Source: Bilabrum cf. latius
Lineage: Eukaryota
Direction: 5' to 3'
Length of the DNA: 64,000 nucleotides
Assembly (NCBI GenBank): GCA_965178125.1
Contig: OZ237742.1
Coordinates: 248,001 to 312,000 of the forward strand
Part shown: piece by piece, positions 3 through 64,000 of the stretch
How positions within the stretch are numbered: the stretch's first letter is position 1
How the letters are laid out: each line of letters starts with the position of its first letter
Translations under genes and position numbers: made by a program
Notes under the pieces: generated by a model
What the model was told of the DNA's origin: nothing
Database searches by the model: none
What the model saw: the letters and a program-made list of their open reading frames with translations, nothing else

Positions 3-1667
3 CCGACAGCAGGAGGCGCACCAGGCCTGGATAATCAGCGTGGCACCATCGCCGGCTCGCAGGGCCCTCCCTGCCGAGTCGTGCTGGTGCATACCACTCG
101 CTCTTTGCTGGGCATCGCCAAGTCGATCGGCAAGTTCTCCGCTCCTGCGTGGTTTGGGGAGCCCCCGACACCTGACGAGTGGGCTCGTAGGCTCAGAGAG
201 CACAGGCAGAGCAAGCGAAAGGCACAGAAAGGAAAATCAAGGGAACAGGGGTCTGAAGTTGCGCGGCAATTCGGGCCAGGTGCAGAGTGCACCAGTGATG
301 AATCGGTAATCAGAGGCTTGGCCACGCAGTCCGTTGGCATCGGCGACTTTCTATTGTCGCTGGAGATGTGCCGGGCGAGCAGCTCCGTCCGGGTGCTAGC
401 CCGGAGGGGACCGAGACACGCCAAATGGGCGGCGCTCGGGCTGGCCGCGGCTTGCCTCGACCGCGAGTTGGGTGAGGTGCCGGGTCATGTACGCGAGGCA
501 GTCCACCAGTGGAGTGCCGCAGAATTCAGCCATGTTGAAGCCCTCGGAAGGTGGAAGCAGGGCAAAATTTTGGCTGCGAGTAGTAGGCTAGACGGGGCAG
601 GGGCAAAGCCACGGGCAGGGACAGCTGGGGGGACAGAGCAGGGCCAGGAGTCATCTGTCATGGGCAGGTCTGACGACGGCACAGTCTCGGTTGGTGGTCC
701 TGGCTGCATGCTGCGCGCTTGGATTGCGGTCAGCGAGTTCTGCGCTTTGGTAGGCGGTGGCGGCACTGTCGCAGACACTGGCTCAATGATCGAGCGGGTG
801 CGTCAAGAGGATGACGATGTTGGCTCAATCATGAGAGGTGTAGTGGAGTCGCGCGGTTTGACCAGTGGTGTTGCGAGCGCAAGTGACCGTCTGCAGGCCG
901 CCATGCCACTGATGGCTGCGATTGAGAGGGCGGTGTCTATGGTTACTGCACGGCTGCACGCCCTGATGCTCCAGCAGGAAGGCAGGCTGCTCGTCTATGC
1001 ACTGAGGCCGCCTTCGACTGGACCGCAGCACGCCCAGCCCCTGTCGCCATCACTGCTGCCGGTCTGCGAGCTGCTCGGAGGACATACCGGTGGCGGCCAG
1101 TTCCGCCTCGCGCCGATCAGGCCGATCAAGCCCTGGGAGGACACTGATAGCCCAAGCTCCAGCTCCAGCTCCAGCTCATCATCGTCTGCTGCGACCGGGG
1201 ACGGGGACATTTCTGATTCCGGATTGCTCACACCCGTGCTGCTTGAGGTCGACCACAGTACATTTGTGGCAGACCCTGCGCGGCTGTATGGGGTCGTGCG
1301 GCTCCTCTAGCAGCAATTGCAGCAGCAGCAGCAGCAGCAGCGCGGGGGTGTCCTATTGGGCTCGACCGTGCTGGACGCGCCTCTGCCCCCTCTCCCTCCC
1401 GAGGTGCGGCGGGCCTGCGAGGGCGTGCTGGCCTTCGGGAAAAGGCGCGGGATGACTAGGAGTCGGGCTGTCGGACCACTGTGCGATGCCGAGGGGTGTC
1501 ATCCCGCAGAGGGATCGGCTACTCGACCTCGACCTCGGTGCAGTCGTCCATCCCTGGTGTGGGCGGGCATCGTCTCTCGGCTGCCCGCCGTGATGGTGCT
1601 CGTGATGTGGGGCACCGTTTCTGGGTGCCATCATTGGAGCACTGGCAGGCAGGGTGGCGTCGGGTGA
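3..1667 (+). CDS. Hypothetical protein, 5'-partial, with a C-terminal hydrophobic (TM-like) segment; one in-frame TAG (1308)
   Basis: The frame is open from the window start. ORFs 81..1310 and 1317..1667 are in the same frame, joined by TAG at the head of a poly-Gln tract (CTC TAG CAG CAA TTG CAG CAG...). Ends TGA. Confidence 0.6.
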
Positions 1668-1844
1668 TGGCAGATCTCTCGGTGGCTGGTACGACCGCAT
1701 CATCGTCGTTGTGTTGCATTGCCACACACATGCATGTCGACCACCACGCACTCATCACAGCTTTTTGCGGAACCGCGCGGCGGCCCAGGATTCCGGAAGG
1801 ATCGGCCCGTCAGCTGGCCGTCACCTATCTATCAAGGAGCAAAC

Positions 1845-3100
1845 ATGGCTGCAAGTGGAGTTTCAGCTAAGGAGCTGTTCGAAACCGACCCTATTACACT
1901 CACGCGATGGCTACTTAGCGAGCAAGCTCGCCATAAGGGAGCTACGGGTGACTTCACACTCCTCATGCAGTCAATTCAGCTGGCAAGCAAGGTGAGACCA
2001 CAGCACATGTGTGGCGTCGCATTGCACCCGAATTAGCATACAGTATGGATCGTGTGCCTATAGTGGTGCGCTTGTGCGGGGGCGGCCGGATGGATGTGCC
2101 CCGCGTACAATCGAAGGTGCGACAACTCCCATCGACCAATCCTTCACCGTACGTGCCGCAGGTTGTCTCGACCGCAGTGCGCAAGGCAGGGATCGCTGGT
2201 TTGTTTGGCCTCGAGGGTGCCGTGAACGTTCAAGGAGAGGATCAGAAAAAGCTCGACATCATTGCGAACGAGAACTTCATCAACACGCTCAGATCGAGCA
2301 CGAAGGTGTGCCTCATGGTGTCAGAGGAGAACGACGATCCTGTTACTGTGGCCACGGACAAGTCTGGCAAGTACGTGTGCGTGTTCGACCCTCTGGACGG
2401 ATCGAGCAACATCGACTGCGGCGTGTCTGTCGGAAGCATCTTCGGCGTGTACGAGCGCAAGTCAGCGGTGGGGGAGTGCGCAACTGCGGCTGATGCCCTG
2501 CAGCCGGGCAGCGAGCTGCTCGCAGCTGGCTACACCATGTACGGTAGCTCCACGCAGCTCGTGCTGGCCATGAAGGGCGGCAAGGTCCAGATCTTCACGC
2601 TGGACCCGGCCATCGGCGAGTTCATCCACACGGGAACCGATGTTATGATCCCGGAGAAGCCCAAGCGCATCTACTCTGTCAACGAGGGCAATGAGTCGCT
2701 CTTCCCCGACGCGGTGCGCCGCTTCATCAGGCAGTGCAAGGCAGCGAGCCCCAAGCCCTACAGCCTCCGGTACGTGGGCAGCATGGTCTCGGACGTGCAC
2801 CGCACCCTCCTCTATGGAGGCATCTTCATGTACCCATCCACCAAGTCGGCGCCTGCGGGCAAGCTCAGGCTGCTGTACGAGTGCAACCCCATGTCGATGC
2901 TCATGGAGGCCGCGGGGGGGCGCGCCATCACGGCCCCCGGGCAGCGCATCCTCGACCTGGAGCCCGCCAAGATCCACGAGCGGGCGCCCATCTTCCTGGG
3001 CTGCAAGCGGGACGTGGACATCATCGAGGCGCTGTTGGCCGAGGACGAGGGCAAAGCAGGGGAGGGGGCGGGCGCTGCCACCGGCGGGGCTTCGTCGTGA
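1845..3100 (+). CDS. FBP: Fructose-1,6-bisphosphatase class I, cytosolic type; exons 1845-1991 and 2162-3100
   Basis: Motifs NVQGEDQKKLD, VSEE, FDPLDGSSNID, RYVGSMV, GKLRLLYE. GT..GCAG intron at 1992-2161. Ends TGA. Confidence 0.95.
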
Positions 3101-3512: not shown

Positions 3513-4514
3513 TCACATGGCCTTGACACCGAGGGCCACGCGGAATCCTTCAAACGCCATCATGGAGATGGTTGTGTGCGGGGCGATGCGCATCCAATTG
3601 GGGAAGAACCCCCTGTACAGGGCCATGGGCCCCTCCGCCCTGGTGATGCGCGCAGCTGCGTCCAGCAGGCCTCGGTACAGAGCGGGGGCCTCTTTCCCAG
3701 CTGCCTTGGCCTTGGCTACCTCAGCCTTCTAGTTCATGACACGGCTCTTAATAGTGTCCACAGGGGCGGTCACCACCGCCGTCACAAAGCCCGCGATGCC
3801 GCTAGCGGCGCAGTGGCACTGCCAGCCGTCCTGCATCCACCCGGCGTTGAGCAGGGCGTGCTTGGCGTGGTCGTACCCGGGCACCTAGCACGCCGTCAGC
3901 AATGCGGCCCGCTGCACGTTCGGTCCAACTCCCTGCCAAAGGGCAGATATGCCCCCTTCCTCCCTCACGATCCGCGAGGCGGTCGAAACGAAGCCGTCGT
4001 ACGACACCCCTCCTTGCGCCCGAATTTTTAGTAAATCGGTCGGGGTAGCGAGGGCGCTTCCAATGACCCCGCTCGCTGCACCAGCTGCTAGTTTGATATG
4101 CAATGGCGTGTGACGGCGATCCGTCTCGCCCAAGAGCCGCTTGAATGGCTCATACAGACCCAATCGGATTGAAGAGTCTGCAATTTTAGCAGATGGCAGG
4201 GTATGGTGGCAATGGGATCAATAGCACGATGGCTGATCAAACAGATCTTTCATTACGACAACATACTTACACGACATCTCCCTGGCCATGGCGGGGCCCA
4301 AGCCACTCCAGAGGCCCCGCACTCCTTCAGATTTTCCGATATGGACGAGGCCGGTCAACATGTTCGTATACGGTCGCTTGGCTGGGTCCAAGGCCCTATC
4401 AAGCTGCAACCTAACTTTAACTACATCAAGTGGATTGGTGCAGGATGCACCAATGGCGTTCGAAAGACCGGCTAAACCCAACCTTTCCCACAGCTAAAGC
4501 TCTCGCTGCGGCAT
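3513..4514 (-). CDS. Mitochondrial carrier (SLC25, UCP/dicarboxylate-like); intron 4178-4270; in-frame TAG at 4494, 3885, 3729
   Basis: Three carrier signatures: PLDVVKVRLQ, PTDLLKIRAQ, PVDTIKSRVMN*. Splicing gives REMSYSSIRLGLYEP. Ends TGA. Confidence 0.9.
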
Positions 4515-4737: not shown

Positions 4738-5916
4738 TCAAGTCCACGCCCACGGCCTCGTTGGGTCCTTTCGCCCAGCAGCGTGGTGCTGCAGCACTGC
4801 CAGCAGCTCCACCGCGGCCTCCTTGGGGCGGTACTCGTCGTCGAAGATGCACGGGTAGTTGTCCGACCCGAGATCCGTGTACCGGTCCGTGAACCCCCAC
4901 GTCACAAACGCGTTGCAACCCGGTCCCTTCCCGGGCTGGCTCGATTTCGCCGCAAGGCAGGCGCTCAGCATATCTCCGTACACCTTGGCCTGGGCCTCCC
5001 GGGCCTCCTTGCCGGCTGGCCCGGGGACGCACTCGGGGCACGAGAGGTCCATCTCCGTGATCTGGGTTGCCAGTCCGAGGTCTCGGATGGCGCGCATGTT
5101 GGCGAGCACTTGCTCCGGGGCGGGGAGCATCCCGAACTTGACGTGCATCTGCAGGCCTACCCCGTCGATGGGCACCCCCCTGGACAGCATGCCCTTGACG
5201 TAATCGAGCTACTTCTAGGCCTTGGTCGAGTTGAGCGCCTCCGCGTTGAAATCATTCACGAACAGTGCCAGCGAATCGGACTGTCTCGCGGCCGCTGCCG
5301 TCCGGAACGCAGTGTCCATGAAAGAAGGCAGCTTCGGGTACCACGTGCCGTTCTTCAGGTCTCCACCGTACGGAAAGCAGCCCCCAGGACCTCGCCCGCC
5401 ATCTTTCGTGCAAAACGGCTCATTGACGACGTCTGTGACGATGGGAAACGCCCCAGCACGGGCCACCATCTGCTCGACGTGGCTTCGAAGCAAGACATCG
5501 AGCACGGTGGCATTCTGCGGCCCGAGCCACTCTGGATTGTGCACACCCCAGCACAAATTGTGAAGCCGAAAACTTCCTCTCATGGCAGCGTTCACCCAGT
5601 GCTAGCTATCCAGACATTCCGTCACGTTCAGGGGTGCCGGAGGGGCCTGAGCCTGCGTGCTCTTCCACTTGCAACCGTTTCCCAGCGTTGTGATTGAGAA
5701 CTGCTGCTTCAGCAGATCTCCATATCCTGGATCGGAAGCATTGAATAAGTACTTGAAATTGTGGGATCCTCCGATCAACACACCAGCTCTCGCAGCCGCC
5801 GATCGCAGCGTCTCGTTTAGATCCACCCCGGACGCTGTGCTCAGCAACTCTGCACGGCTTGCACCAGCTGCCAAGAAATACAATGCAAAAAGTCTATGCA
5901 CCGAGTGGTTGGGCAT
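4738..5916 (-). CDS. Secreted GH10 glycoside hydrolase (endo-1,4-beta-xylanase-like); TAG at 5602, 5215, 5209
   Basis: Signal peptide-like N-terminus. Motifs HNLCW, DVVNEP (acid/base), NDFN, PIDGVGLQMH, QITEMD (nucleophile), TWGFTD. Three same-frame ORFs joined by TAG. Ends TGA. Confidence 0.9.
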
Positions 5917-6094
5917 GTTGCTTGGTCGCGAATGAAAAAAAGAAAGGTGCCGGAACGATAACTCGGATCGCCGGATCAACGACGTCATTTTGCTGCCCTA
6001 CTAGCGCGTCTCCAGTTGTGTCATTGACTTTCACCACCGTGAATCGCATCTTGTGCCTAGATTCTTACCTTTCGGATCGGAATTATCATTCATC

Positions 6095-8518
6095 ATGCGG
6101 GCAGTTGCTGCTGTGCTAGCGTGTGCGTCGGTAACATCTCAGATTGCCTGGGGGATCAGTCCTCAAAAGATCTTGCAGGGAATGTCGTTGGAAGACAAGA
6201 TCGGGCAGATGACGCAACTCGACATATCATACTTCAAGAGCTCGCAGCCTCTCTCGAAGGACAGCCCGCTGGGGCTGGACGCCAAGAAACTCGAGGACAC
6301 GTTCAATTAGTATCGGATAGGGTCCGTCATCAACACCCTGTACACTGGCGTCGATTTGTGCTCTAACGAGTTGGGCAACGCCACGAACGGGTGGACTGTG
6401 GAGCAGTGGCGCGCCATCGTTTCGCAAGTCCAGGCGGCGTCTAAGAAGTCGCAGAGTGGGACGTTTGTCCCCGTCCTCTACGGGCTGGACAGTGTCCACG
6501 GGGCTAACTACGTGCCGGGGAGTGCCATCTTCCCTCACAACACCGGGGTGGCGGCAACGTTTAACACCTAGTGCGCCGCTGCCGCTGGGCGCCGCGCCGC
6601 GGAAGACACGCGAGCCGCGGGCATCCCGTGGATGTTCAGCCCAGTCCTCGGCGTGGGCATCGACCCTCTCTGGAGCAGGCTGTACGAGACCTTCGGGGAG
6701 GACCCCCTGGTGGCCGCCTCGATGGGCGGGGCCTTTGTAGCGAGCGCGCAGCTCGGGGGCGTCAACGCCAGCGACTCGGTGGCCGCCACTGCCAAGCACC
6801 TGATGGGGTACAGCGCCCCCCGGTCGGGCAAGGACCGCACGGACGCGTGGATCCCGGAGCCCTACCTGCGGCAGTACTTTGTTCCCTCCTTCCAGGCCGC
6901 GTTCAACGCAGGCGCGCAGACGATCATGTGCAACTCGGGCTCCATCAACGGCATGCCCGTGCACGCCTCAAGGCCGATCCTCACGGAACTGGTCAGGAAG
7001 CAGATGGGCTTCGGGGACGGGCTGGCGGTCACGGACTGGCAGGACATCGAGAAGCTGCACTTTTACCACCACCTGGCCGCCACCAACGCTGAGGCGGTGC
7101 AGCTGGCCCTGGACGCGGGCATCGACATGTCCATGGTCCCGCTGGACCTGTCCTTCTTCACCACGCTGAGGGACCTGGTGCACAACGGGACCGTCCCCGA
7201 GTCGAGGCTGGACACGAGCGTGCTGCGCATCTTGCAGGCCAAGGCAGACATGGGCCTCTTTGAGAACCCAGTGGCGGCCCCTGCGGCACGGGACCACGTG
7301 CCCGGGAGCCCACAGGCCGAGTTCGAGGCGCTAGAGACGGCCCGCCAGAGCCTCACGCTCATCAAGAACGACCCCATCCCGGGGAACAGCTCCGGGCATG
7401 GGACGGTCCACGGGGCTGGCGATGAGGACGAGGCAGCCCTCGCGCAGCAGCCCGCTGCCCTCCCGCTCGATTGGCTGCCGGCGGGCGGCAAGGTGCTCGT
7501 GACGGGCCCAGCCGCAGCCTCGAGATCGGTCATGTGCGGCGGGTGGACGTTCCACTGGCTGGGCGCCTGTTCCAGCGACGTGGAGTTCAACGGGCGGGGG
7601 CACCTCGTGCACGAGGCGCTGCAGAGCTAGCTGCCGCACGCCGATGTCAGCTTCGTGCAGGGCGCGGGGTTCGACAAGCCCCTCAAGGGCGGGCTGGAGC
7701 AGGCCGCCGCGGCTGCCAAGGACAGTGACGTGGTCGTACTAGTGGTGGGCGAGCCGCCCGAGAGCGAGTCCGAAGGTGACGCAAACACCCTGCTGCTGTC
7801 CTAGCCTCAGATGGAGCTGTACGACGCCGTGGCTGCGGCCGGCAAGCCCATCGTCGTGGTGCTCCTCGAGCCGAGGCCCAGGGTGCTGGGCCGCGTGGCT
7901 GACGGAGCCTCTGCCATCCTCATGGCGTACCTGCCCTGTTACCACGGCGGGCAGGCCATCGCGGAGGCAATGGCTGGCGTGTTCTCGCCCTCTGGCCGGC
8001 TGCCGATCGAGTATCCCGCGACCACGGGCGACCTGGATGTGTACTACCGCAAGCCCACGTCGGACTACTCGTAGGGCACCTCGCAGCCCACGCACAGCCC
8101 GCTCGCTGGCTTCGGCCACGGGCTGACCTACGGCAACATCACGGTGGACTCACTCTCCCTGAGCTCTGCCGAGGTGGCGCCCACTGGTGTGGTGGACCTG
8201 TCTGTGCAGCTCACCAACAGGGGTGCCAGGGCGGCCAACTACACGATCCTAGTCTTCGGGACGCAGCTGTACCGATCACGGATCACGCCCGAGGTGGAAA
8301 TGCTGCGCAAGTTCCAGCAGACGGGCGAGATCAAGCCCGGCAAGTCGTTCGTGGCGCACGTCCAGGTCGAGGCCCAGTCCTTCGCCTACTGGGATTTCAA
8401 CGCGACCATGCGGGTGGACGCGGGCGAGATGGTCCTTCGCGTGGAAGACAAGGCCATCAGCATGCACATTACCGAGGGGGCCGTCGTCAAGCAGGGCACT
8501 CCCATCGGCATGGGCTGA
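6095..8518 (+). CDS. Secreted GH3 beta-glucosidase/xylosidase (~807 aa); TAG at 6308, 6569, 7628, 7802, 8072
   Basis: Signal peptide. Motifs MSLEDKIGQMTQ, YGLDSVHG, WSRLYETFGEDP, AKH, VTDWQDI, AGIDMSM, PSGRLP, FGHGLTY, and an FN3-like C-terminus. Ends TGA. Confidence 0.93.
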
Positions 8519-8763
8519 GGCGGCCAGGTGTGCCTTCGGGATGCCCACATTCATAGCGCGGTGTCTCGGATTAACGCTATGCAGGGTTGTTCTGCGTGGC
8601 TTGCACATATTTTCCCCAAAGTAGACTTCTGGATTCAGGGTTATCCGGATTCCGGATCCGTGCACAGTCCGGATCGACTTCTCGTCGGTGGCAGCAGACC
8701 GTGCGTAACGACCAAAAGCAAAGCACTCAAGTAGACATCAAGCCTCAGCACCCCCCGACGAGG

Positions 8764-11700: not shown

Positions 11701-12099
11701 GAATGCAGCTCGATCATTTTGCGATGCGGCGCTGAAGCTGCTGGAACCGATTAGGTTCTGCTTTTTAAGAGACTTGTAAAAATCTGCATTCTTGCCCGAA
11801 GACAAGATGCTCTTCTTTGGCTTGCGTTGCTGCGCAAATCGAACTCGAGGCTGCTCCTGTGCTCTTTGGACCTGGGGCTGCGCATCCCGACTTTCGCGCG
11901 CCGTGCGGCGCTTTTTGGATGGTTGCTATCGTGGAATCGGTGCTCTCTTCTGCTTTTTGGCTTTCCGCTGCTGCTTGCGTAGTTCTCGCCTGCTCAACTT
12001 GCTGTTCCCAGCTGCCGAAGACATGCCTGGATGCATGGCACCCCAGTCGTCCCCATCCGCACCGCTCGCCTCAAGTTCTGCCCTAGATCTTTTAGGCAT
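8764..12099 (-). CDS. NOM1: Nucleolar MIF4G/MA3 domain protein NOM1/Sgd1 (~1,111 aa); TAG at 11926, 11230, 11125, 10831, 9298
   Basis: Motifs EIERLEKLLG, YVPPHLR, IKGLINRL, GRWWITGASW, RMNTDLRRRIFVAVM, CCGQEKQYNPYY, FTF*LSLWD. All segments share one frame. Ends TGA. Confidence 0.9.
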
Positions 12100-16343: not shown

Positions 16344-16424
16344 GGCCCAGGGCCCAGGCCCTGTCTCAGGCTGGGCCAAGCTCAGGTCCAGGCTCAGCCC
16401 ACGGCAATGCAGGGCAGCGCAAAC

Positions 16425-44317: not shown

Positions 44318-44537
44318 ATTTGAAGGGTGATAATTGCTATCGTTCACTATAAAGCATGCAGCACAGGCAAAAATGATGTCATGAGAAAGAGAACAAATGA
44401 AATCCGAACAGCCAGCGAGGATGGTGGAGCAAGATCCTGGAGCAAGATGCCACATCATGTGAACCGACCTAACCACGAAAGTGCGTGGTAAGTACTGCAC
44501 AATCAACAGGCTTGCCTACTTAGCGACATGGCTCTTG

Positions 44538-53500: not shown

Positions 53501-56500
53501 AGCTGTAGGCCCGTGGGAGAGTGGCCGTGCCGGCAGGCGTGGTAACCGCGACATCCAGCTAGGCACCGACCCCGCCCACTAAAGTGCACGTGATCTCCTG
53601 GTTGTTGTCGAACAGGCTTGCCTGGGTCTCCATCTAGACGTCAAAGCACGTGAAGCTTCCACCCACGACCACGCTCTGCACATCGCTCGCAACGCTCCCC
53701 AGGTTCCTACCGCTGAGCACAAGAGTCTGATTCGCATCCGTGGGGGCCTGCTGCCCGCTGGTTATCTCGGCACTCGGGGCCTTGTATACCACCACGCCTT
53801 CAGTTAGCGTGCTGCGCTGGCCGCCGTACTCGATGTAGACCGCGCTGCCTTGGCTGACGAGCAGGGCGGCTCCCGCCACCACGCACTGAATCGAGGTGAT
53901 CAGTCCATCGCTGTCGACCGCATCCTGTTGCTAGCCCAAGCATGCAGCTCCTGCTATGCGAATCGTCGCGCTGGAGGCATCCCCGTTGAGTGCAAGGCGG
54001 CTGCCGCTGAGCGTGAACGTCGTGTTCTACCCCGAGACCGCGAACACGCCAGACGGTGAAATGCTCTGAAGGGTAGGTGACTGGAAGCTCACCTAGAAGC
54101 TCGTCTGTGAGCTTGATTGCCCGTCCACCGTAGCTTGCACTGTGAAGGGGCCTCCGATGAGCTTCGGGGTGGTGCAACGCAGCTAAGAAGCTGAATCTCG
54201 TAAGGTCTGTGCGCATGGAATCGACCCTATGCGAACCTAAGCATTGCTGGCGGCTTGGGTCCCGTCCGAAGTGTGGGAGGTAGATGTGCCAAACCCACTT
54301 CCAGAGATCACAACAGACTGCTAGCCGGCCGCATCCAGCGTGAACGAAGACTCGCCGCCGAGCCGCACAGCAGTGATGGCCGGCGGCAAGAACCCGACCA
54401 TGCAGTAACCCACGCGGTCATGTTCAACATCCCACGAAGCAGACAGCGCCCGGGGCTTGCCAGTGCCCGAAGGTATCACCACGCGGAAGGTCTGCAGCGT
54501 TGCTGAGCTGTACGTCGAGAACTGGTCAGCGGACATGCCTTCCTTGATGCCATGGTCGACGGCAGGCTACCCACCGACCCCCGTCGAGGTCCTCGAGTTG
54601 AGCGCTGTCACGACGACGGAACGCTGTTGCGCACCGTCCAGCAGCAGAGCGCCGTTGCTGAAGTCTGTCTCGTTTGCTCCGCACTCCACCGAAGCCGTTC
54701 CGAGCGACATCCGCAAGAGCTTGACTTGAGAATAATTCGCTGCGGCAGAGGACCCCCGTGAGAACCCAGACTAGTACAAATCAACCCAGTCCGAGTCGGT
54801 TAGCACATCATCGAGGCGCGCCTTGGCAGCATGCGAGATGTCGCTCAGAGCTGAGCGATAATCGGGAGACCGCACCACTGGCTGCATTGCGCCGGCATTA
54901 CCGTCAATGTCGTACCGCAAGTTGATGTTGACAATGGTCCCGACGCCCGAAGGCACCTCGGCCGAGACCTCCCAGTCGGAGTGCACCTGCACGCTGGCCA
55001 TCTCCAGGCTGCTCAACTCGCTTGCAGAAGATTGCATCCGCACGCTCGCAAACAGTCGCATGCGAGCTTTGCCGCTGCCCGCGATACGATGTGCTGCAGA
55101 GACCGCTCTGGTCCCGGTGGGACGCACCCACACGTGGGAGCCGAAGTTGACACCAATGACGCGGATACGCTGCTTTCTGTACAAGTCATAGTACTGGATT
55201 TCCTCTTGATTCTCGGTCGGGGATCGACTCACGGCATACGCGATGGGGGATGCGAAATTGAACGTCGGCAAAGTTCCTGTCGCCGGGCGGTCGGCTGCAA
55301 ACAACTGCACGACTTTGCTGCTGCCCACGTCGCTGCTCGGCACGCAGTCGGCCATGGTGGAATTGATGACGCTCACCGAGCGGCAGGCCTGCCCGTCTAC
55401 GGTGACTCGAACCTGTTCGTTGCCTGCGGTGCCAAAGTTTTCGCCCTTGATGCGGATCTTCCACCTCGTGTTCGGCGCGGTGGTATTCACCCAGCGCATG
55501 TGCTGCGGCGGCAGCAGCATGCCGCTGACGGAAGGCAACTCCGTGCTCACTGCGCCAACAAGAGTCTCGCGATGCGTGCTGTTGGACCCGTACTTGAACT
55601 GCACAACCGCATTCATACTGTCCCCGTGGGTCGCTGGCATGACCGCCCGAACTCTGAACTGCTGACAGCTATGCGAAGGGCCCTGCAGAGCTGCGACGTT
55701 CACGCTCGACGCCTCCTCACCCCCAATCCACAGCTTCACGGCGCTGCGAATGTCTGCACGCGCAACCAGGCCAGTGGGCACGGTGACCCTGAACTCGATG
55801 CCTTGCCCCCCTGCCGGATCGTAGCAGCAGCCGGTCGTCAGGTTGAGTCCAGCGGGGGGGCTGGTCGGGTGCCCCGCCCCCGCCTGCAGCTCGATTCGAG
55901 ACCGGTCGCACCTGAACATGGGTGACACCTCAGGCAGGTCATAGTAGAGCGAGTTGGGCACTTCACTCGGGCTATTAATCATGTTGATCTTGCTCGACTC
56001 CATCAGCTGGAACCCATCCTTGATCACCTCCACGATCCCGTCCTGGTACCCGCACTCCGACGCCGGGCAGTCGCAGTGGCTAGGCCCCGTCTCGCCCTGA
56101 ATCGAGGCGCTTGGGCACTTGTGCGCGCCGCTGGACACGCTGAGGCTCGCCGGTGAGTACTTGAGTGTGACTCTGTCCCCCGCGCCGTAGGTCCCCCTGC
56201 CGAAGAACCGGATCCTGCCACCTCCCCCAAGGGCGTCTTCCCCCTTGGCCCCCGGCCATACATCAGGGGGCTCTGCGCGGCTATACCCGCCGCGGGCCGT
56301 GATTTGAGTCTCCTTCGATAGCACGATCGACTCGGTCCCGTACACGGTCAGGTAGACAGTGCCCCCCGACCCCCCCCCGGGAATACCAGGGCCGTACGCA
56401 TCAGCTCCATCAGCGGCGATCACCACGCGGCCAAGGTGGATGCTGCCATGCCTGCTCTGGAAACTGAGCAGCCCGCCAGAGGCTCCGCCGTGTGAAGGTC

Positions 56501-57317
56501 TGCAGAAATCCTCGTCGTCGTAGCCCTTCAGCTCCAGGCTCTGACCGTCCTCAGACACGACCCGGTCGGTGGCGAGACCTCCGCCGCCACCGCCGCCTCC
56601 AGCGAACACAGTCTGCCCCGCCGCGGACAGCACTGCCACTTGGTTGCTGTTGGCTAGGCGGGATCTGCCCCCTCGTCCTCCGTGTGAACCTCCTGCTGCC
56701 CCAGGTACTTCTTGCAGCGCAGAAGCGGGTGGTGAAATGGAACCGTGATTTGTGACGAACGCCCCATTGCTCACCCTAGAATGGCCTCGTGTACCAACAG
56801 GCCTTTGGACCTCTGCCGCATGCTGTATAGTTGAAAATGAAGCGTATCCAGCGGACAAGCCGCCGGCATACCCACCCAAGTAGTTGAGGTGGGAGGTGGT
56901 GTAGGTCCTACCATCACAAGCAAGCGCTTTTGACCGCGCGTTGGCCCCAAACTACCGTGCTTGCACCGTAATATTCTGCATTGGACTAGTGAGGTTCCAT
57001 ACACCACCATCAATGATGATGTCGTAAGACGTGTAGAACCGGAGAGCTCGCCGTCCTGAGAGCTGAATCTTGGTCCCGTAGGCCAATATGATATGGTTGA
57101 ACGAAAAGTCAGCGGATGTAAGCCCGCCGCCGATAGCTCCGATGCTCCCGCCTTTACAAGTTCCGCCACTGCATATGGTGACGGCGTCCGTGTCGATGCT
57201 CAACGTCTCTGTCCCTGCGCAGCACACGAGGTCCTGTCGTCCGAGCTGAAAGCATGCCAGACACAGGGCTGTCAGGTAGCACAGAAGCCACGTCAGGCTT
57301 TGAACAAGATTAATCAT
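44538..57317 (-). CDS. Giant (~4,259 aa) cell-surface protein: signal peptide, Gly-rich region, many IPT/TIG repeats, FN3, Cys-rich modules, multi-pass TM domain; about 28 in-frame TAG
   Basis: Sixteen standard-code ORFs lie in one frame. Each gap was translated by hand and contains only TAG. Repeated P.I..V.P / I.G.NFG / V.IGG..C / C..P.G.G pattern. C-terminal FLYAGFR...YWE.V...RK...PY....N.LE. Ends TGA. Confidence 0.88.
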
Positions 57318-57542: not shown

Positions 57543-59225
57543 TCACTCGATGGCAGGTCCCTCCATCTCCGCAATCCCCAGAAGCACCCGCGCGCAGTCC
57601 TTCATGCGCCCCACGTACTCCAGCTTGGCCACGTGTCCCTCGGGAGTGCCGCAGTACCCCAGCATGGCGCCCCACCATCCCATGGCCATCGTGCCCGTGC
57701 TGTCGTTGTCACCGCTGTGCAGACAACCGCGCTCGCACAGCACCCTGTAGCCTCTCTGGTCCGGACTCAGCTCCTTCTCCTTCTCCTTCTCATCCGCGGC
57801 CTTGCCTGCCTCCCCAGCATCCCCACCACTGGCAGCTTTCCCGTCCTTCTCCCCCTTCTCTTCCCCTCTCCTCGATGCCCTTGCCTTCCCGTCCTCGTCC
57901 TCGTCCTCGTCCTCGTCCTGCCTCGCCAAAAGAGCGTGCACGAGTGCGTCGTAGGCCAGGATGCACGCCTGAGTGCCGCTGGCACCGGGCCACGGCTTGC
58001 GCCTCCTCCTGCTCTCGTCCTCCCCCTTGCGGGCGGGACGGATGCAAAACCGCATGTACTCATCGTCCACCTCTGCCGGAGTTGTGGCGGTGCTGCGGAG
58101 GAACGACACCACCGGGGGTGCTCGGTCGCCATCGTCAGGGGGCGATCGGGCACCGGTGGGAGCGGCGGTATCTGGCGCTGACAGACTCGCTTCTGACGCG
58201 CCTCCGCTCGCTCCCTCCCCTTTGGTGGCGCCTTCTTCCGCTGCCTTGCCGCTGCTCTCTTCTTCGATGAGCCCCCGGATCCGCATGTACTGCTGCCATA
58301 GCTCGATGAAGGGCACGCATTCATGAATGTTCTCTCGGGGAAACCGGCCCGAGGAGTGCAGGTACTCCCCCACCGTGGAGTGTCTGATCTCTCGCAGGGA
58401 TTCCCGGGGATCCTTTCCCTGCGCGACCGCCTCGCCGCCCACGATCCGAAGCAGCCTGCCGGGCCACTCCAGCACAGGCACGCCTCTGAGCGCCAGTGCG
58501 GTGAACAGCCCGCCCGCCACTGAGCCGAGGTAGCCTGTCGGGTGGTGGTGAGACATGCGACCGGTTTCGATTCCGAATTGCACGATCTCCGCCTCCTGGT
58601 CCGCCCGCGGGAACCGCAACCCGATGCACATGGAGCGCATGGCCGCGCCGCACCCTCCCCCTGTCGGGTTGAAGGGCGCCTTGGCCCATCCCAGGCCCGA
58701 TCCGCCACACTGGACGAATCCTTTTCTTGTTGTATTACCCGGTGCTCGGCCAGACATGTCAGAGAAGAAGTCCTTGTGGTACCGCCTCGAGATTTCCTGC
58801 ATGGCAGATTGGATCCACTCTGCGTCGGGTGCCAGGCTTTCCTCCAGGTCCTCAGGAGCAGCACCATCTCCGCCGCGAATTCTCCGACCAGATACAGCAT
58901 ATCTTGCTGCAGACACCGCTCCAACTTTGCAGAACCCCTCCGCAGTGGACAGGTGCAACACCGTATCGTCGGAAACCCTGAAATGCTTTCGGTCGAGTTG
59001 GTAGGCCAGGGGACCAAACTTGGCAGGAGTCTCAGACTCTATGTCCGAATAGATCACACTGACTCCATTAAACTCCCAATTACCGTTTCGGTAACCCAAA
59101 GCATCGCCAACACCAGCAAGCACCATGCAAGCCTCGAATCGATCTTTAAGTGGAGCCCTGACTCGCACTATTGGCGCAACTGTCGACCTACCTGATGTCT
59201 TTGTTGATTTTGCAACAGATGCCAT
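57543..59225 (-). CDS. ADPRH: ADP-ribosylhydrolase, ARH1 (ADP-ribosylarginine hydrolase)-like
   Basis: Motifs GDALGYRNGNWEF, VSDDT, RAPG, GCGAAMRSMCIGLRFP, HHHPTGYLG, HSGDNDSTG. Ends TGA. Confidence 0.9.
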   Translation of the reverse strand: MASVAKSTKTSGRSTVAPIVRVRAPLKDRFEACMVLAGVGDALGYRNGNWEFNGVSVIYSDIESETPAKFGPLAYQLDRKHFRVSDDTVLHLSTAEGFCKVGAVSAARYAVSGRRIRGGDGAAPEDLEESLAPDAEWIQSAMQEISRRYHKDFFSDMSGRAPGNTTRKGFVQCGGSGLGWAKAPFNPTGGGCGAAMRSMCIGLRFPRADQEAEIVQFGIETGRMSHHHPTGYLGSVAGGLFTALALRGVPVLEWPGRLLRIVGGEAVAQGKDPRESLREIRHSTVGEYLHSSGRFPRENIHECVPFIELWQQYMRIRGLIEEESSGKAAEEGATKGEGASGGASEASLSAPDTAAPTGARSPPDDGDRAPPVVSFLRSTATTPAEVDDEYMRFCIRPARKGEDESRRRRKPWPGASGTQACILAYDALVHALLARQDEDEDEDEDGKARASRRGEEKGEKDGKAASGGDAGEAGKAADEKEKEKELSPDQRGYRVLCERGCLHSGDNDSTGTMAMGWWGAMLGYCGTPEGHVAKLEYVGRMKDCARVLLGIAEMEGPAIE

Positions 59226-59379: not shown

Positions 59380-60351
59380 ATGAGAATCACTTACATCTTG
59401 GCAGTATGCGTTCTTGCGCTGACCGCTATATGTTGGATCCCAACAGCCGCTGCCAGCCTCGCGAACCAGGTGGAATCCGCCCTGGTGGGCCGGTCGACGA
59501 GGGCCCTCTCGGTGAGAGCTTCAAGCGAGCACCTTCCACACCGCGGCGCAGTATCTTTCCCGCGGCGCGGCAGACGCAGATCAACGAGCCTCCAAGTATC
59601 ATCACCATGCACTGCGGCGATCTGCCGACTCGCACAGGTGCTGCATAAACGGCTCGTGATGGTGCTCCCAGTCGCCACGTTGCGGTCGTTTTCCCCGCTC
59701 GGCGGCAGCCCAGGTGCCGACACGTTGCGATCCGATTCGAACGATCCCTTGAGGTTTTCATCGGACAGCTCAAGACCCACACTCGCTTAGTATCGATCAC
59801 GGTTCACTATTCTGTCCGCAGGTGCTCATGGGGGAGGAGGCGGGTTTGCTCGAAGACGGCCGCAGTCGCATGCTCGCTCGCGGCGAGCAAGTGCCTGAGG
59901 AGGGCGAGCACGGAACCGGGCAAGCAGACGCAACGTAGATCGTCCACGCGGCTATTGAGGGCTCTGCTCCTCCAGCGATTGAATGCGGTACAACCGATGC
60001 AAATCCTCACCCTCAGGCTCACAAACGAGCTGGCACAGGCGGCGGCAAACAGCAGCACCCCGAGCGGCAGCCCGTTCCAGCGGGGCAGGGGTGGTTGTAC
60101 GAGACGTCGGGCAGCTACCAGCAGTAGGGCCAGCGCGCTGGTTCGAGGGACCAACGGTCTGCTCAGCAGCAGCTGCCAAGGGGTCAGCTCCTTCTGGGCG
60201 CCCCGGCGGACCGGGCGCTGCTGACTGCCGGTGGCGAGCAGCTGCTCGATGAGCCAAGTGATGGGATCGACGGGAACCGCAGAGGTGGATCTCTCCGAGG
60301 CGGGCAAGCGTAAGGCAGGAGCAAGATGGATCCGCGTCCGCTTCAACTATG
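59380..60351 (+). CDS. Possible secreted orphan protein; exon structure unresolved
   Basis: Signal-peptide-like start MRITYILAVCVLALTA. Candidate acceptor at 59821 is followed by a Gln-rich frame with two TAG. Confidence 0.35.
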
Positions 60352-60596: not shown

Positions 60597-62355
60597 ATGA
60601 GTAGCGCATCGTCATCAGCAGCATCCGCAAGTCAAACCGAAGTTTTCGTATTATCAATACCACTTGATGTTGCTGCCCCCAAGCCAGGCGCTAAAATCGT
60701 CGCTGAATGGCGGGATGGCTCGGATCGTAAGTTGAAAGCTTCTCCTAGTAGAGTATACTGCATGTGGCTACTTAGACTTGGAATTGTCGCCTCGCACATC
60801 CACTCTAAATTATGCAGAAATAGCTGAAATAGTTGAATTGCGCCCGAAAGGCGAGCATACGTTTGGTGTTGTTGCATCAGAAGGTGCAACTACTCGCTCG
60901 GTTGACTTTTACGTCCACTACCCAACCTGTAAGCAAGGCATTGCCGTCGCACCCAAATTGCATCGATCCATGGATAGAATTCCAGCTCCTTGGATGCAAC
61001 TGCCCGTCCACGCAGACGACAAGAGACTCGATGAGTGGATTGGTTTTGAGCGACTGCGGGGTGTAATCACGCTGAACTCCGCCGAAGATGCGGCTACCTC
61101 TGCAGTAGCAGCTGATTCAAGTGATCACGAGGATATTCCAGCCCGAGCAGGACGGAAGAGATCGCGTCGTGCCATGGGATCAGCCGGGGGCGAGCCCATA
61201 CCGGCGTCGGCGGGAGCCTCCCGCAAGCGGGCGCGGAGCACGGCTGAGAAGCAGCACCCTGCGAGCGGGGCCGGTGCCAGCGACCCCGATAGCGGCTCCG
61301 GTGGTTCCGCGGGCCCTTCTACTGCCCCGGCAGAGGCTGGATCGCCCCCGGACCTGGGTCCCCCCGTGCCCGTCGAAGTCTCGGTGCCGCACGAGAAGCT
61401 CCTGCACGCCGCCACCTCGGGCTCCTCCCTTGTTCCCCACACAGAGGGTCTCGATCCCGCGAGCGAGGCCCTGGAGACGCAACACGAGGCGCTGACCAAG
61501 GTGCGCAACATCCAGCGAATCGAGCTGGGCCGGTGGGAGGTCGACACGTGGTACTTCGCGCCCTACCCAGACGAGTTCGCCGGGGACAAGCTGTTCCTGT
61601 GCGAGTTCACGCTCAAGTACTTCTCCACCAAGGAGATGCTCGAGAAACACAAGCGCAAGTGCGGGCTGAGGCAGCCCCCCGGGCAGGAGATCTACAGGGA
61701 CGGCAAGCTGAGCATGTACGAGATCGACGGCAAGACAGAGAGGCTCTACTGCCAGAACCTGTGCCTGCTGTCCAAGCTCTTCCTGGACCACAAGACGCTG
61801 TACTTTGACGTGGACCCCTTCTTGTTCTACGTGCTCTGCGAGGTGGACGAGTACGGCGCGCACATCGTGGGCTACTTCAGCAAGGAGAAGATCAGTCCGG
61901 ACGGCTACAACCTGGCGTGCATCCTCACACTGCCTCCCTACCAGAAGCGCGGCTTCGGCAAGTTCCTCATGAGCTTCAGCTACCTCCTCAGCAAGGCCGA
62001 GGGCAAGCTGGGCTCTCCGGAGAAGCCCCTCAGCGACCTGGGCAAGGTCTCATACCGGTCCTACTGGAGCTACGTGCTGCTGAAAGAGATCTACGACGCG
62101 GGGGACGAGCCCCTCACCATCAAGGGGCTCTCGGAGCGGACGTGCATCACCCCGGAGGACATCGTGTCCACGCTCACCTCGCTCGATATCGTCAGATATT
62201 GGAGAGGGCAGCACGTCGTGTGCGTCAGCCGAGCGGCGGTGGCGCGCTTTCTCGCCAACAACAAGTCTGCCAGGCACTTTGCCAAGCCAGAGTGCCTGCG
62301 GTGGACGCCCCCGAAGATTCCGACCAAGGGAAAGGCAAAGGGCAGGAAGGGGTGA
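60597..62355 (+). CDS. MYST histone acetyltransferase (Esa1/MOF/HAM type); introns 60727-60817 and 60929-61015
   Basis: Tudor-knot FYVHYPTYDKRLDEW after splicing. Motifs [50 protein letters not shown]. Ends TGA. Confidence 0.95.
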
Positions 62356-62518
62356 TTATAATAGGCGCAGGTGTGCCTGTATCCCTGCATCCTGGACATC
62401 GAGTGGTGGGTGGGCCGGGGTAGCGTGTGCTGCTGTGTGATGCACCGGTCACAACCAACCCGCTTGTGGTCAGTCCATTATTTAGTCGCAACAACATTCA
62501 TACAACACAACCATGGAA

Positions 62519-64000
62519 TCAATCAGTTAATAGGCACGTGCATGCCCAGACAACATCAGCGGCCTTTGTCCTCATTCCACGCATCTCAGTGGAGAGAACA
62601 GCAACTGCTTTCACCCATGCGTCCGCACCTCGGACGTGGGCACCCTGCGCCGGGGACAGCTTGGGATGGCTGCGAGCCGACGCGAGGAATTCCCTCCAGC
62701 GGTCCAGATCACTTGCACTCACGTCCAACCGCAATGGATCCTCACCCTGCTCCTCGTCTGCTCGTCTCTGGCACACGACTGCCTCGGGCTCGGGCTCGGC
62801 ACCAAGCAGGTTCATCTCGCGCTCACTTGTGAGGTCGCTTGCCTGCTACCCGCCTGCACCGACCAACGCGCCAAGTATGCTACCTCGGGGAGCATGCACA
62901 GCCCCAGCGCTCCCCGACGCATCCGCTCGTGCACCCCCCGCGGCACCCGCCAGGTCCTTCACCTCCACGTAGCTCCCCGTCGATTGGGTGTGTGCCCCGT
63001 GGCACGCCATGGGGCCCAGCAGCACCCTCAGCAGCACGTCCAGCAGGTTGGCCCGCTCCACAACCGTCACCACGTCGCGAGGGGAGCATGTTGCGCTTTC
63101 TGCACCGTCGCTCGCATGGCTCACGGAGCAGTCGGGCCAGGCTTCGGGCTGGTGCGGGAGCCAAGGTACCGCTCGGCCGATGCAGTCTCGTGGGGTGGCG
63201 CAGGAGAGGGGCAAGGAGCAGTCGCTGCTCGTGGGCTGCAACCCGTCCATATCCGACAGGAACACGCGCAAGCCGTCCTAACGACGGCCATCTCCCGTTG
63301 ACCCAGGCATGACCTGCCACTGGCTGGGCTTCCAGTCACAGATCCACCGACCCATCCCCCTGGCCTCGAGGACCGACTCCACCAGGGATGCCGCGATCTG
63401 TGTCCTCTTACTTGCCTCCTGGGCGATCAGCGCGAACGCTTGCCATTGCACCGACGAGTCGCTCGCGATGCTAGCAGGCCCCCGCTCCGGCAGTACAGAG
63501 GCACGCCGTATGGCTTGCGCCAGCCTGCCCTCGGACCGGACCAGCCACTCGTCCAGGGGAACCGCCCCAGCTGGCAAGTGCCTCACACCCAAGCTGCATG
63601 CTGACCCCTCCAGGCCGGGAGGACTCGCGGCGTAGCCAAGCAGGATGGGGCTGAGCCCCGCCCGCACCCTCCTCACGTCCCTCAGCACGTGGTTCTCCGC
63701 GTCAAGGTCGCACCTGTGCTCGTCCGACCACAGCTCGTATCGGAACATCTCTTGACACCAGCGTTGCGACAGGGCCCCGGGATTTTGCCCCGCCCTCGCG
63801 TCCCATGGGGGTGCTTCGGCGCACGGGAGATCCCGAGGAACAACTGTGCCGCCCTACTCGTTCCCTTGCGGGCCACTCGCATGGCGCTATCCTGTGGTCA
63901 GGAACGGCTTGCCGGAGCGATCGATCGCAAGCAGCTGCCGGTGGGCGACTCTGCCCTCGCCCATGCTAAGGGTTAAGCGGTCCCCATCAAAGCCAGCGTA
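62519..64000 (-). CDS. 5'-partial protein with a divergent kinase-like domain (DIPK/PKDCC-like); 4 in-frame TAG
   Basis: The frame is open from 64000 with only TAG interruptions. SPILLGY, ICDWKPSQW and FLSDMD resemble catalytic-loop and DFG equivalents. Ends TGA. Confidence 0.5.

What the first reader, a model, noticed from the sequence alone, without database searches (positions are those of the whole stretch)
1665..62521. TGA-only termination; TAA unseen as either stop or sense
All ~25 modelled gene ends are TGA, and no confident model contains an in-frame TAA. Apparent TAA ends (e.g. 40580, 37181) fall inside introns. UAA and UAG are normally reassigned together. Here TAA could be a rare stop (a split UAR code, as reported for the fornicate Iotanema), a rare Gln codon, or nearly unused. 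CAA is used fairly often, so zero sense TAA against ~90 TAG argues against simple UAR=Gln.
Basis: partly seen in the sequence, partly recalled or inferred. Interest (0 to 1): 0.85.

Follow-up and report, generated by a model that had tools for sequence, protein, structure and literature searches.

The report
UAG is glutamine; UAA unused
In this GC-rich protist DNA the stop codon TAG is read as glutamine, every gene ends in TGA, and TAA appears neither inside genes nor at their ends, which is an unusual state for a genetic code.

Summary
In 25 gene models (18,032 codons) there are 94 in-frame TAG, 0 in-frame TAA, and 25 of 25 ends are TGA. TAA is common off-frame, in leaders and outside genes.

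TAG is glutamine. Two TAG codons are CAG in a relative about 6-10% divergent. A metagenome relative has TAG at the invariant Q of the MYST motif YCQNLCLL. Contigs that skip two GT..AG introns elsewhere carry five TAG codons unspliced.

TAA is not an ordinary Gln codon. CAA is 20% of CAR, so about 17-27 TAA were expected (P about 1e-7). TAA is also under-used as a terminator: it is 30% of TAA+TGA outside the models, giving P about 1e-4 for 0 of 25.

I read UAA as an avoided codon, either near-unassigned or only weakly terminating. The likely cause is capture of UAG alone (confidence 0.45). Rivals are a working but rare stop (0.30) and a rare Gln codon (0.17).

No tRNA gene, eRF1 or whole genome was within reach, so this is not settled. 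At 61% GC the window does not fit Amoeboaphelidium (about 40% GC).

The parts
78..1667 (+). ORF of unknown function. Ends TGA 1665-1667. One TAG lies inside a poly-Q run. 5' end open or uncertain.
   Evidence: Coding score; translation; counts; no Pfam hit.
2045..3100 (+). Fructose-1,6-bisphosphatase. Ends TGA. 0 TAG, 0 TAA.
   Evidence: Pfam PF00316 and PF18913.
3513..4163 (-). Mitochondrial carrier, 3' part. Ends TGA. 2 TAG.
   Evidence: Pfam PF00153; PDB alignment to UCP2/UCP1.
4738..5916 (-). GH10 glycoside hydrolase. Ends TGA. 3 TAG.
   Evidence: Pfam PF00331.
6095..8518 (+). GH3 beta-glucosidase. Ends TGA 8516-8518. 5 TAG, at 6308, 6569, 7628, 7802 and 8072.
   Evidence: Pfam. Unspliced contig 6049-8628 of run X5, identical to the window. 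7628 and 8072 are T>C (CAG) in relatives X11 and X12. P0001 has Q, G, Q at three of the sites. Codons checked.
8764..12099 (-). MIF4G/MA3 protein. Ends TGA. 5 TAG.
   Evidence: Pfam; contig 8819-11182.
12222..14960 (-). Abhydrolase_3 protein. Ends TGA. 4 TAG. One TAA lies in the leader upstream of the first ATG.
   Evidence: Pfam; contig 12565-15092.
15222..16343 (+). TLC-domain-like membrane protein. Ends TGA. 0 TAG.
   Evidence: Atlas lead, TRAM_LAG1_CLN8, score 0.93. Contig 15207-18309 covers its stop and that of the next gene.
16425..18677 (-). Methyltransf_28 (NDUFAF7-like). Ends TGA. 4 TAG.
   Evidence: Pfam; contig 15207-18309.
18782..20374 (+). WD40 protein in three exons (18782-18874, 18966-19131, 19230-20374). 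Introns are GTGAGG..CAG and GTGAGT..CAG. Ends TGA.
   Evidence: GT..AG joints in contigs of X5, X6 and X12; sequence; Pfam WD40.
20502..22487 (-). Methyltransf_16 protein. Ends TGA. 4 TAG, three of them in a tandem peptide repeat.
   Evidence: Pfam; translation; contig 21087-22612.
22606..28773 (+). AAA_11/AAA_12 helicase, 2055 codons. Ends TGA. 12 TAG. One TAA lies 9 codons upstream of the ATG.
   Evidence: Pfam.
28847..29362 (-). Ubiquitin-conjugating enzyme. Ends TGA. 0 TAG. The five TAA of the enclosing TGA-bounded frame all lie upstream of the ATG.
   Evidence: Pfam PF00179.
29543..31336 (+). Dynein regulatory complex subunit 2. Ends TGA. 3 TAG.
   Evidence: Pfam; PDB hits to DRC2.
31440..33242 (-). 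GHMP-kinase family protein (phosphomevalonate-kinase-like; weak Pfam hit). Ends TGA. 5 TAG.
   Evidence: Pfam PF08544, E = 1.2e-4.
33635..34234 (+). DJ-1/PfpI protein. Ends TGA.
   Evidence: Pfam.
34477..35925 (-). Low-complexity ORF of unknown function. Ends TGA. 6 TAG. Low-confidence model.
   Evidence: No Pfam hit. Its codon score over the whole ORF is negative.
36317..36868 (-). 3' exon of tandem copy A (unit 36284-38450). Ends TGA.
38484..39233 (-). 3' exon of tandem copy B (unit 38451-40617). Ends TGA. 1 TAG where copy A has GAG.
40687..41781 (+). ORF of unknown function with 36-nt tandem repeats. Ends TGA. 1 TAG.
42188..44566 (-). Multi-pass membrane protein of unknown family. Ends TGA. 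6 TAG. Start provisional: it overlaps the end of the next gene.
44538..57317 (-). Giant IPT/TIG-repeat membrane protein, 4259 codons. Ends TGA. 28 TAG, 0 TAA, 44 CAA, 139 CAG in its TGA-bounded frame of 4274 codons.
   Evidence: Pfam PF01833, E = 1.7e-99.
57543..59225 (-). ADP-ribosylglycohydrolase. Ends TGA. 0 TAG.
   Evidence: Pfam.
60597..62355 (+). MYST histone acetyltransferase. Exon 1 starts at 60597 and is followed by GTAAGT at about 60727. The main exon runs to TGA 62353-62355. The Q of YCQNLCLL is CAG at 61753.
   Evidence: Pfam; alignment A3.
62519..64000 (-). ORF of unknown function that runs off the window. Ends TGA. 4 TAG.
   Evidence: Orthologue in L001 at 36% identity, also ending TGA.
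60311..60313 (+). The only TAA that closes an ORF with gene-like codon usage (59828-60313; 161 codons, 2 TAG; TGA follows 13 codons later). It lies inside GTAAGG.
   Evidence: No Pfam hit. No relative in 1.84 billion representatives.
37181..37183 (-). It lies in GTAAGC, in a cluster of five TAR codons that the tandem paralogue does not conserve. Probably an intron.
40580..40582 (+). It closes a weakly scoring ORF on the opposite strand over the 5' part of tandem copy B. Not in a splice-site motif. Probably non-coding.
   Evidence: no Pfam hit.

Best explanation
This is nuclear DNA of a GC-rich, intron-poor protist with genes for flagellar parts. It uses a variant genetic code: UAG is an ordinary glutamine codon and UGA is, in practice, the only terminator. 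UAA is kept out of both roles.

The most likely mechanism is that only UAG was captured, by a tRNA-Gln with anticodon CUA, which cannot pair with UAA. Termination at UAR was weakened to let UAG be read. That would leave UAA functionally near-unassigned: no efficient decoder, and at best a poor terminator. Selection together with GC pressure would then have removed it from reading frames and moved gene ends to UGA.

Shown: UAG is sense and is Gln. TAA is absent in frame. All ends are TGA. Both absences are beyond chance.

Inferred: the tRNA set, the specificity of eRF1, and therefore the unassigned or weak-stop status of UAA.
For: UAG as a sense codon.
- There are 94 in-frame TAG in 20 of 25 models.
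- The contigs of X5 and X6 skip two GT..AG introns of the neighbouring WD40 gene. An X5 contig runs unspliced through the GH3 gene with its five TAG.
- No TAG sits where coding potential ends.

UAG as Gln.
- TAG at 7628 and 8072 is CAG in relatives X11 and X12 (codons checked).
- The 95%-identical protein P0001 has Q, G, Q at three TAG sites.
- L001 and L002 have TAG at the invariant Q of YCQNLCLL, which is Q in all 8 other aligned MYST proteins.
- A window TAG aligns with Q in the L001 orthologue.
- Over five GH3 TAG columns Q scores best (6.2 bits), with E close behind at 6.0.
- One TAG lies inside a poly-Q run.

UAA is not an ordinary Gln codon.
- 0 of 18,032 codons are TAA, against about 27 expected at the off-frame observed/expected ratio or about 17-22 at the CAA share.
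- L001 has 11 TAG and 0 TAA with CAA at 40% of CAR.

UAA is not a favoured stop.
- 0 of 25 ends are TAA.
- TAA is 30% of TAA+TGA outside the models.
- It is 5 of 22 first in-frame non-TAG stops downstream of the real stops.
- By the Ho and Hurst review, TAA appears universally optimal as a stop (PMC9348620, abstract). Its absence here is therefore unexpected for a working stop.
Against: - No tRNA gene, eRF1 gene or proteomic datum was within reach. The window has no tRNA and no Rfam match, and no whole genome is held. The mechanism is therefore inference only.
- 25 gene ends allow a true TAA share of up to 11%.
- By the same review TAA usage falls with GC3 across genomes (PMC9348620, figure legend), so a low share is expected to some degree.
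- Every eukaryote with a UAG-only reassignment that I read about keeps UAA as a working, preferred stop (PMC5304391; PMC11687900).
- None of the papers I read describes a nuclear code with an unassigned UAA.
- One weak ORF (59828-60313) ends in TAA.
Confidence: 0.45

Rival explanations
1. Split UAR code of the Iotanema type, shaped by GC pressure. UAG is Gln, and UAA is still a fully working terminator that is simply rare. The genome is GC-rich and prefers UGA, so a 64-kb sample happens to contain no gene that ends in TAA.
For: - In-frame TAA is excluded exactly as in-frame TGA is: 0 and 0 in 17,946 codons. That is what a stop codon looks like.
- Every UAG-only eukaryote that I read about keeps UAA as a stop.
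- A tRNA with anticodon CUA is not expected to read UAA (PMC11687900, discussion passage).
- TAA usage falls with GC3 across eukaryotes (PMC9348620, figure legend).
- 0 of 25 is still compatible with a share of 5-10% (P = 0.28 at 5%, my arithmetic; P = 0.07 at 10%).
- The weak ORF 59828-60313 would be one such gene.
Against: - TAA makes up 30% of TAA+TGA in local non-coding DNA, and 5 of 22 first in-frame stops downstream of the real stops. At those shares 0 of 25 has P between 1e-4 and 0.0015.
- Where UAA works it is normally the preferred stop (PMC9348620 abstract; PMC11687900).
- The two gene ends in relative L001 are also TGA, though they are orthologous to window ends and so not independent.
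Confidence: 0.3
2. Ordinary UAR=Gln code (NCBI table 6), with TAA legal but very rarely used. A tRNA-Gln(UUA) exists, eRF1 is UGA-only, and codon bias or weak decoding keeps TAA below about 3% of TAR codons.
For: - UAG=Gln with TGA as the only terminator is exactly what table 6 organisms show.
- In ulvophyte green algae with that code TAG is used more than TAA, and only TGA ends genes (PMC2984419, passages).
- It explains 25 of 25 TGA ends without further assumption.
- UAA and UAG are usually reassigned together (PMC5304391).
Against: - 0 TAA against 94 TAG, while A-ending codons are 18-19% of the CAR, GAR and AAR pairs and 9.5% of TTR. That gives P between about 1e-8 and 8e-5.
- In L001 CAA is 40% of CAR and there is still no TAA among 11 TAR codons.
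- Both C>T changes from CAA and G>A changes from TAG should feed TAA if it were synonymous.
Confidence: 0.17
3. Nothing special: sampling or annotation artefact. The in-frame TAG would be introns, pseudogenes or assembly errors, and the TGA-only ends would follow from how the ORFs were defined.
For: The ORFs were first delimited by TGA, so a TGA end is partly built in. Eight models lack homology support.
Against: - An independent codon-usage scan with all three triplets scored neutrally finds 24 TGA-ended ORFs with a score of 30 or more. It finds no TAA-ended ORF at that level.
- It finds no TAA or TAG where strong coding potential stops.
- A run contig carries five TAG unspliced.
- TAG is conserved as TAG or CAG in relatives.
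- A 4259-codon open frame with 28 TAG cannot arise from errors.
Confidence: 0.03

Closest known systems
Iotanema spirale (Fornicata) nuclear code: UAG = Gln, UAA and UGA stops (Panek et al. 2017, PMC5304391; abstract and passages read)
   Same: UAG alone is read as glutamine and no sense UAA is seen. UGA terminates.
   Different: In Iotanema UAA is the predominant terminator. Here it ends none of 25 genes, although it is common in neighbouring non-coding DNA. This window is 61% GC.
Phyllopharyngean ciliates Hartmannula sinica and Trochilia petrani: UAG = Gln, UAA the preferred stop (McGowan et al. 2024, PMC11687900; abstract and passages read)
   Same: UAG is reassigned to Gln without UAA. The paper's mechanism is that an anticodon CUA is not expected to read UAA.
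   Different: [quoted passage not shown] Here the reverse holds.
UAR = Gln code (NCBI table 6) of many ciliates, ulvophyte green algae, hexamitid diplomonads, Streblomastix and Amoeboaphelidium (PMC2984419 passages; lists of lineages in PMC11687900 and PMC5304391)
   Same: TAG sits at Gln positions and TGA is the only terminator seen. In ulvophytes TAG is commoner than TAA.
   Different: Those organisms do use TAA as Gln. Here there is no TAA in 18,032 codons, plus none in 1,226 codons of a relative. The window (61% GC) does not fit Amoeboaphelidium, whose genomes are about 40% GC (PMC10608142, Table 1). No Amoeboaphelidium name appeared among the hits.
Unassigned codons produced by composition pressure (codon-capture theory of Osawa and Jukes; examples such as CGG in Mycoplasma capricolum and AGA/AUA in Micrococcus luteus). 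Recalled from memory, not from any call.
   Same: A codon that has vanished from reading frames and has no efficient reader. A GC-rich genome would lose an A-rich codon.
   Different: Those cases are bacterial sense codons. An unassigned former stop codon in a eukaryotic nucleus is not described in any paper I read. Whether UAA is truly unread here was not testable.

Membership tests
UAR = Gln code (NCBI table 6) | UAG at glutamine positions | tested here: met
   TAG in the window is CAG in relatives at 2 GH3 codons. P0001 has Q at 2 of 3 sites. L001 and L002 have TAG at the invariant Q of the MYST motif.
UAR = Gln code (NCBI table 6) | UAA also used as a glutamine codon | tested here: not met
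   0 TAA in 18,032 codons against 94 TAG. 0 TAA against 11 TAG in L001. About 17-27 were expected. The sample is one window, so a share under 3.1% is not excluded.
UAR = Gln code (NCBI table 6) | UGA is the only terminator | tested here: met
   25 of 25 models end in TGA. Both L001 genes end in TGA.
UAR = Gln code (NCBI table 6) | tRNA-Gln genes with anticodons UUA and CUA; eRF1 N-domain altered (NIKS, YxCxxxF, GTS) | not testable with these tools
   No tRNA gene in the window and no Rfam match. No whole genome is held. No eRF1 sequence could be reached.
UAG-only reassignment (Iotanema type: UAG = Gln, UAA and UGA stops) | UAG is sense and UAA is never sense | tested here: met
   94 TAG and 0 TAA in frame.
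UAG-only reassignment (Iotanema type: UAG = Gln, UAA and UGA stops) | UAA serves as a terminator of real genes | tested here: inconclusive
   0 of 25 ends are TAA, with a 95% upper bound of 11%. One unsupported ORF ends in TAA inside a GTAAGG motif.
Unassigned (vanished) codon | Absent from reading frames and from gene ends while present in non-coding DNA | tested here: met
   0 in frame and 0 at ends. 90 off-frame in the coding sequences and 133 outside the models. 7 in 617 leader codons. This holds for this window only.
Unassigned (vanished) codon | No cognate tRNA and no efficient release-factor recognition | not testable with these tools
   This needs the genome's tRNA set, its eRF1, and a release or reporter assay.

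The most novel reading that the evidence does not exclude
UAA is a truly unassigned codon in this nuclear code. eRF1 would have become UGA-specific and only a tRNA-Gln(CUA) would have arisen. The lineage would then be a living intermediate on the road from the standard code to UAR=Gln. It would show that UAG can be captured first while UAA lies idle, in a eukaryotic lineage that none of the papers I read names as having a variant code.
Probability: 0.3. Interest if true: 0.85.

Novelty: new variant of a known kind. Interest (0 to 1): 0.65.

Why it matters
UAA and UAG almost always change meaning together. The few known exceptions all keep UAA as the main stop.

A genome in which UAG is glutamine, UGA alone ends genes and UAA is idle would be a third state. 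It bears on three points:
- how eRF1 tells UAA from UAG;
- whether codon capture under GC pressure works in nuclei;
- the order of steps towards the common UAR=Gln code.

All three could be tested directly with this organism's tRNA set, its eRF1 and reporter assays.

There is also a practical point. Standard-code gene callers truncate this lineage's proteins. The database copy of the relative's GH3 is 534 residues against the window's 807. Annotating it under table 6 would hide the question of UAA.

Tried and rejected
Access.
- Whole genome: not held.
- tRNA scan: none found.
- Rfam: no match.

Public runs.
- No RNA holder is listed on record for the stretch searched. The runs marked 'RNA?' are guesses.
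- Read laying printed only 40 of 1,355 differences. The fate of most TAG codons and of the stop codons in the relatives could therefore not be read.
- No run was laid on 26-64 kb.

Collection scans.
- Metagenome scan with the 4259-residue TIG protein: 29 pattern matches, none confirmed.
- MYST scan of metagenomes: 6 loci, of which only L001 and L002 belong to this lineage. L003-L006 are other eukaryotes with introns.
- MYST scans of prokaryote genome contigs: none confirmed. Three unrelated loci at 40-55% identity.
- MYST scan of viral contigs: none.

The TAA-ended ORF 59828-60313: no Pfam hit, and no relative among 1.84 billion representatives.

Lineage.
- The best named relatives are only 41-60% identical: dictyostelids for GH3, a bicosoecid for DRC2, and Phaeothamnion and dictyostelids for MYST. 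The lineage stays unplaced.
- The atlas gave no useful taxa.
- The aphelid idea was dropped on GC content.

PDB alignments. TAG columns in DRC2 and the mitochondrial carrier fall at variable positions (L/K/A, S/N and E; E and S). That fits a polar residue such as Gln but does not prove it.

Literature.
- Karpov et al. 2013, the first report of the aphelid code, is not held.
- Searches for a GC-rich or stramenopile UAG=Gln code found no paper on such an organism. They cover only the held library.
- Supplementary tables of the papers were not seen. They could hold stop-codon counts that bear on the expected TAA share.

Full report
WHAT THE WINDOW IS

The window is 61% GC throughout. It has no tRNA gene and no Rfam match. 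With TGA as the only stop it holds very long open frames, up to 4274 codons. With TAG also counted as a stop the longest is 727 codons, whether or not TAA is counted.

Pfam identifies eukaryotic genes packed on both strands:
- FBPase, GH3, GH10 and a mitochondrial carrier;
- a MIF4G/MA3 protein, Abhydrolase_3 and two methyltransferases;
- a WD40 protein, an AAA_11/12 helicase and an E2 enzyme;
- dynein regulatory complex subunit 2 (confirmed against solved axoneme structures);
- a GHMP kinase, DJ-1, a 4259-residue IPT/TIG membrane protein, an ADP-ribosylglycohydrolase and a MYST acetyltransferase.

Introns are few. Contigs of three public runs skip 18875-18965 and 19132-19229, both GT..AG.

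THE OBSERVATION

I built 25 gene models. Seventeen have Pfam support. Listed run contigs cover eight at least in part. One is supported by an orthologue.

Together they hold 18,032 codons: 94 TAG, 0 TAA, 139 CAA and 545 CAG. All 25 end in TGA.

The models were first delimited by TGA, so I checked with a method that does not assume that. I trained a codon-usage log-odds score on 12 Pfam genes and scored TAA, TAG and TGA as neutral.
- It finds 24 TGA-ended ORFs with a terminal score of 30 or more, and no TAA-ended ORF at that level.
- No TAA has 60 coding-like codons upstream, apart from one shadow frame antisense to GH3.
- No TAG sits where coding potential ends.

In the TGA-bounded frames of the Pfam genes, in-frame TAA occurs only upstream of the start codon. 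This is seen in Abhydrolase_3, the two methyltransferases, the helicase, the GHMP kinase and the E2 gene. The leaders of 12 genes hold 7 TAA in 617 codons.

IS IT MORE THAN CHANCE?

TAA is not rare as a trinucleotide:
- 345 on the two strands of the window;
- 35 and 55 in the two off-frames of the coding sequences;
- 133, against 303 TGA, in the 10,114 bases outside the models.

At the off-frame observed/expected ratio (0.31-0.39), about 27 in-frame TAA were expected. TGA is likewise 0 in frame. In-frame TAG has a ratio of 0.41.

If TAA were synonymous with TAG, its share should resemble the A-share of other two-fold R-ending pairs. That share is 0.19 for CAR and GAR, 0.18 for AAR and 0.095 for TTR. 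P(0 given 94 TAG) then lies between about 1e-9 and 8e-5.

For gene ends, P(0 of 25) is 1e-4 at the local non-coding share of 0.305, 0.004 at 0.20 and 0.07 at 0.10. Among the first in-frame non-TAG stops downstream of the true stops, 5 of 22 are TAA.

Both absences are therefore real for this window. The bound on terminators is loose: up to 11%.

WHAT TAG MEANS

An X5 contig identical to the window runs unspliced from 6049 to 8628, through the GH3 gene and its five TAG. The same run's contigs splice the WD40 gene. So the TAG codons are not removed as introns. The run types are guesses by the tool, but the GT..AG joints speak for RNA.

Evidence that TAG is Gln:
- In two runs that hold a relative about 6-10% divergent, the first base of the TAG codons at 7628 and 8072 is C, giving CAG (codons checked). 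Only 40 of 1,355 differences were printed.
- A database protein 95% identical to GH3 has Q, G and Q at three TAG sites.
- Two metagenome contigs, L001 and L002, encode a MYST protein 77% and 62% identical to the window's. L002's figure is lowered by a frame change near its end. Both have TAG at the invariant glutamine of the motif YCQNLCLL, where the window has CAG and all 8 other aligned proteins have Q.
- One window TAG aligns with Q in the L001 orthologue of the neighbouring gene.
- Over the five GH3 TAG columns in 31 distant homologues, Q scores best (6.2 bits), with E close behind at 6.0.
- In solved DRC2 and carrier structures the TAG columns are variable polar positions.

Glutamine is the well-supported reading.

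WHAT TAA IS

Three readings remain.

(a) A rare Gln codon (table 6). This fits the TGA-only ends, but it needs TAA below about 3% of TAR codons while CAA is 20% of CAR. In L001, which is less GC-rich, CAA is 40% of CAR and there are still 11 TAG and no TAA (P = 0.004).

(b) A working but rare stop, as in the known UAG-only codes. This fits the exclusion from frames. However, in Iotanema and the phyllopharyngean ciliates UAA is the main stop. TAA is held to be the optimal stop generally (PMC9348620 abstract). Here it ends none of 25 genes while being 30% of TAA+TGA nearby.

(c) An avoided codon, either unassigned or only weakly terminating. This would follow if a tRNA-Gln(CUA), which is not expected to read UAA (PMC11687900 passage), captured UAG while release at UAR was weakened. 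It alone predicts both absences, but none of the papers I read describes such a nuclear code.

I put (c) at 0.45, (b) at 0.30 and (a) at 0.17. The ranking rests on 25 gene ends, and a genome-wide count could overturn it.

The single possible counter-example is the ORF 59828-60313 (+).
- It has 161 codons, two TAG, and codon usage like the weaker real genes (0.137 per codon, against 0.129 for the E2 gene).
- It ends in TAA at 60311, with TGA 13 codons later.
- It has no Pfam hit and no relative among 1.84 billion representatives.
- Its TAA lies in GTAAGG.
- GTAAGT also follows MYST exon 1, and GTAAGC holds the TAA at 37181.
- The two run-confirmed introns start GTGAGG and GTGAGT.

It may be an exon followed by an intron. 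No RNA was laid there.

THE ORGANISM AND WHAT IS KNOWN

The best named relatives of three proteins are only 41-60% identical: dictyostelids, a bicosoecid and an ochrophyte alga. The lineage is therefore unplaced.

The window (61% GC) does not fit Amoeboaphelidium, whose genomes are about 40% GC (PMC10608142, Table 1).

Relatives with the same TAG usage occur at three distances: the 6-10% divergent one in public runs, the source of P0001, and L001/L002.

Six literature searches found no description of a GC-rich UAG=Gln code with TGA-only termination. They cover only the held library. Supplements were not seen.

VERDICT

- UAG=Gln with UGA termination is well supported.
- Simple UAR=Gln is disfavoured.
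- Whether UAA is a rare stop, a rare Gln codon or idle cannot be settled without the genome's tRNAs, its eRF1 and a large set of gene ends.

I rate it a new variant of a known kind.

Noticed in passing
window, the 25 TGA stops listed: The base after the TGA stop is never A: G 11, T 8, C 6, A 0 of 25. A is about 20% of the window. This is an odd termination context and may relate to how the release factor reads UGA.
   Followed up: no
window 36284-40617: Tandem duplication of a unit of about 2167 bp in a lower-GC stretch. The 3' 570 bp and a 5' block are about 98-100% identical, while the middle is only about 60% identical and full of TAR triplets. This suggests gene conversion of exons around a diverging intron. 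One copy has GAG where the other has TAG.
   Followed up: partly
window 41456-41671 and 20502-22487: One ORF of unknown function has five 36-nt tandem repeats. The Methyltransf_16 gene has three copies of a peptide repeat (DETE-x-RGMAPMPP), each carrying its own in-frame TAG. The TAG was therefore already there when the repeat was copied.
   Followed up: no
window 15207-18309: One run contig bridges two convergent genes whose stops are only 82 bases apart (16343 and 16425). Their 3' ends must overlap or abut.
   Followed up: no
window 4738-8518: A GH10 gene and a GH3 gene sit head to head, 179 bases apart. Both N-termini look like signal peptides by eye. This may be a small polysaccharide-degrading gene pair.
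   Followed up: no
runs X5, X6, X7 and X8: Sequence identical to the window (0 differences over contigs of 2.5 kb) occurs in runs filed under three or four different coded organism names. Either the names are close kin, or this organism travels with other cultures.
   Followed up: no
L001:842-4907 against window 60970-64000: Gene order and orientation (MYST, then the convergent unknown gene) are kept in the metagenome relative. MYST is 77% identical but its neighbour only 36%. The neighbour has 10 TAG in L001 and 4 in the window, mostly at different places.
   Followed up: partly
L008:10001-10675: A MYST-like stretch, 55% identical over 225 residues, lies inside a 6.65-Mb chromosome record of an actinobacterial MAG. 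It could be contamination, misassembly or gene transfer.
   Followed up: no
P0001 against window 6095-8518: The database copy of the relative's GH3 starts at an internal Met and has 534 residues against the window's 807. This shows that standard-code gene calling truncates proteins of this lineage in public collections.
   Followed up: partly
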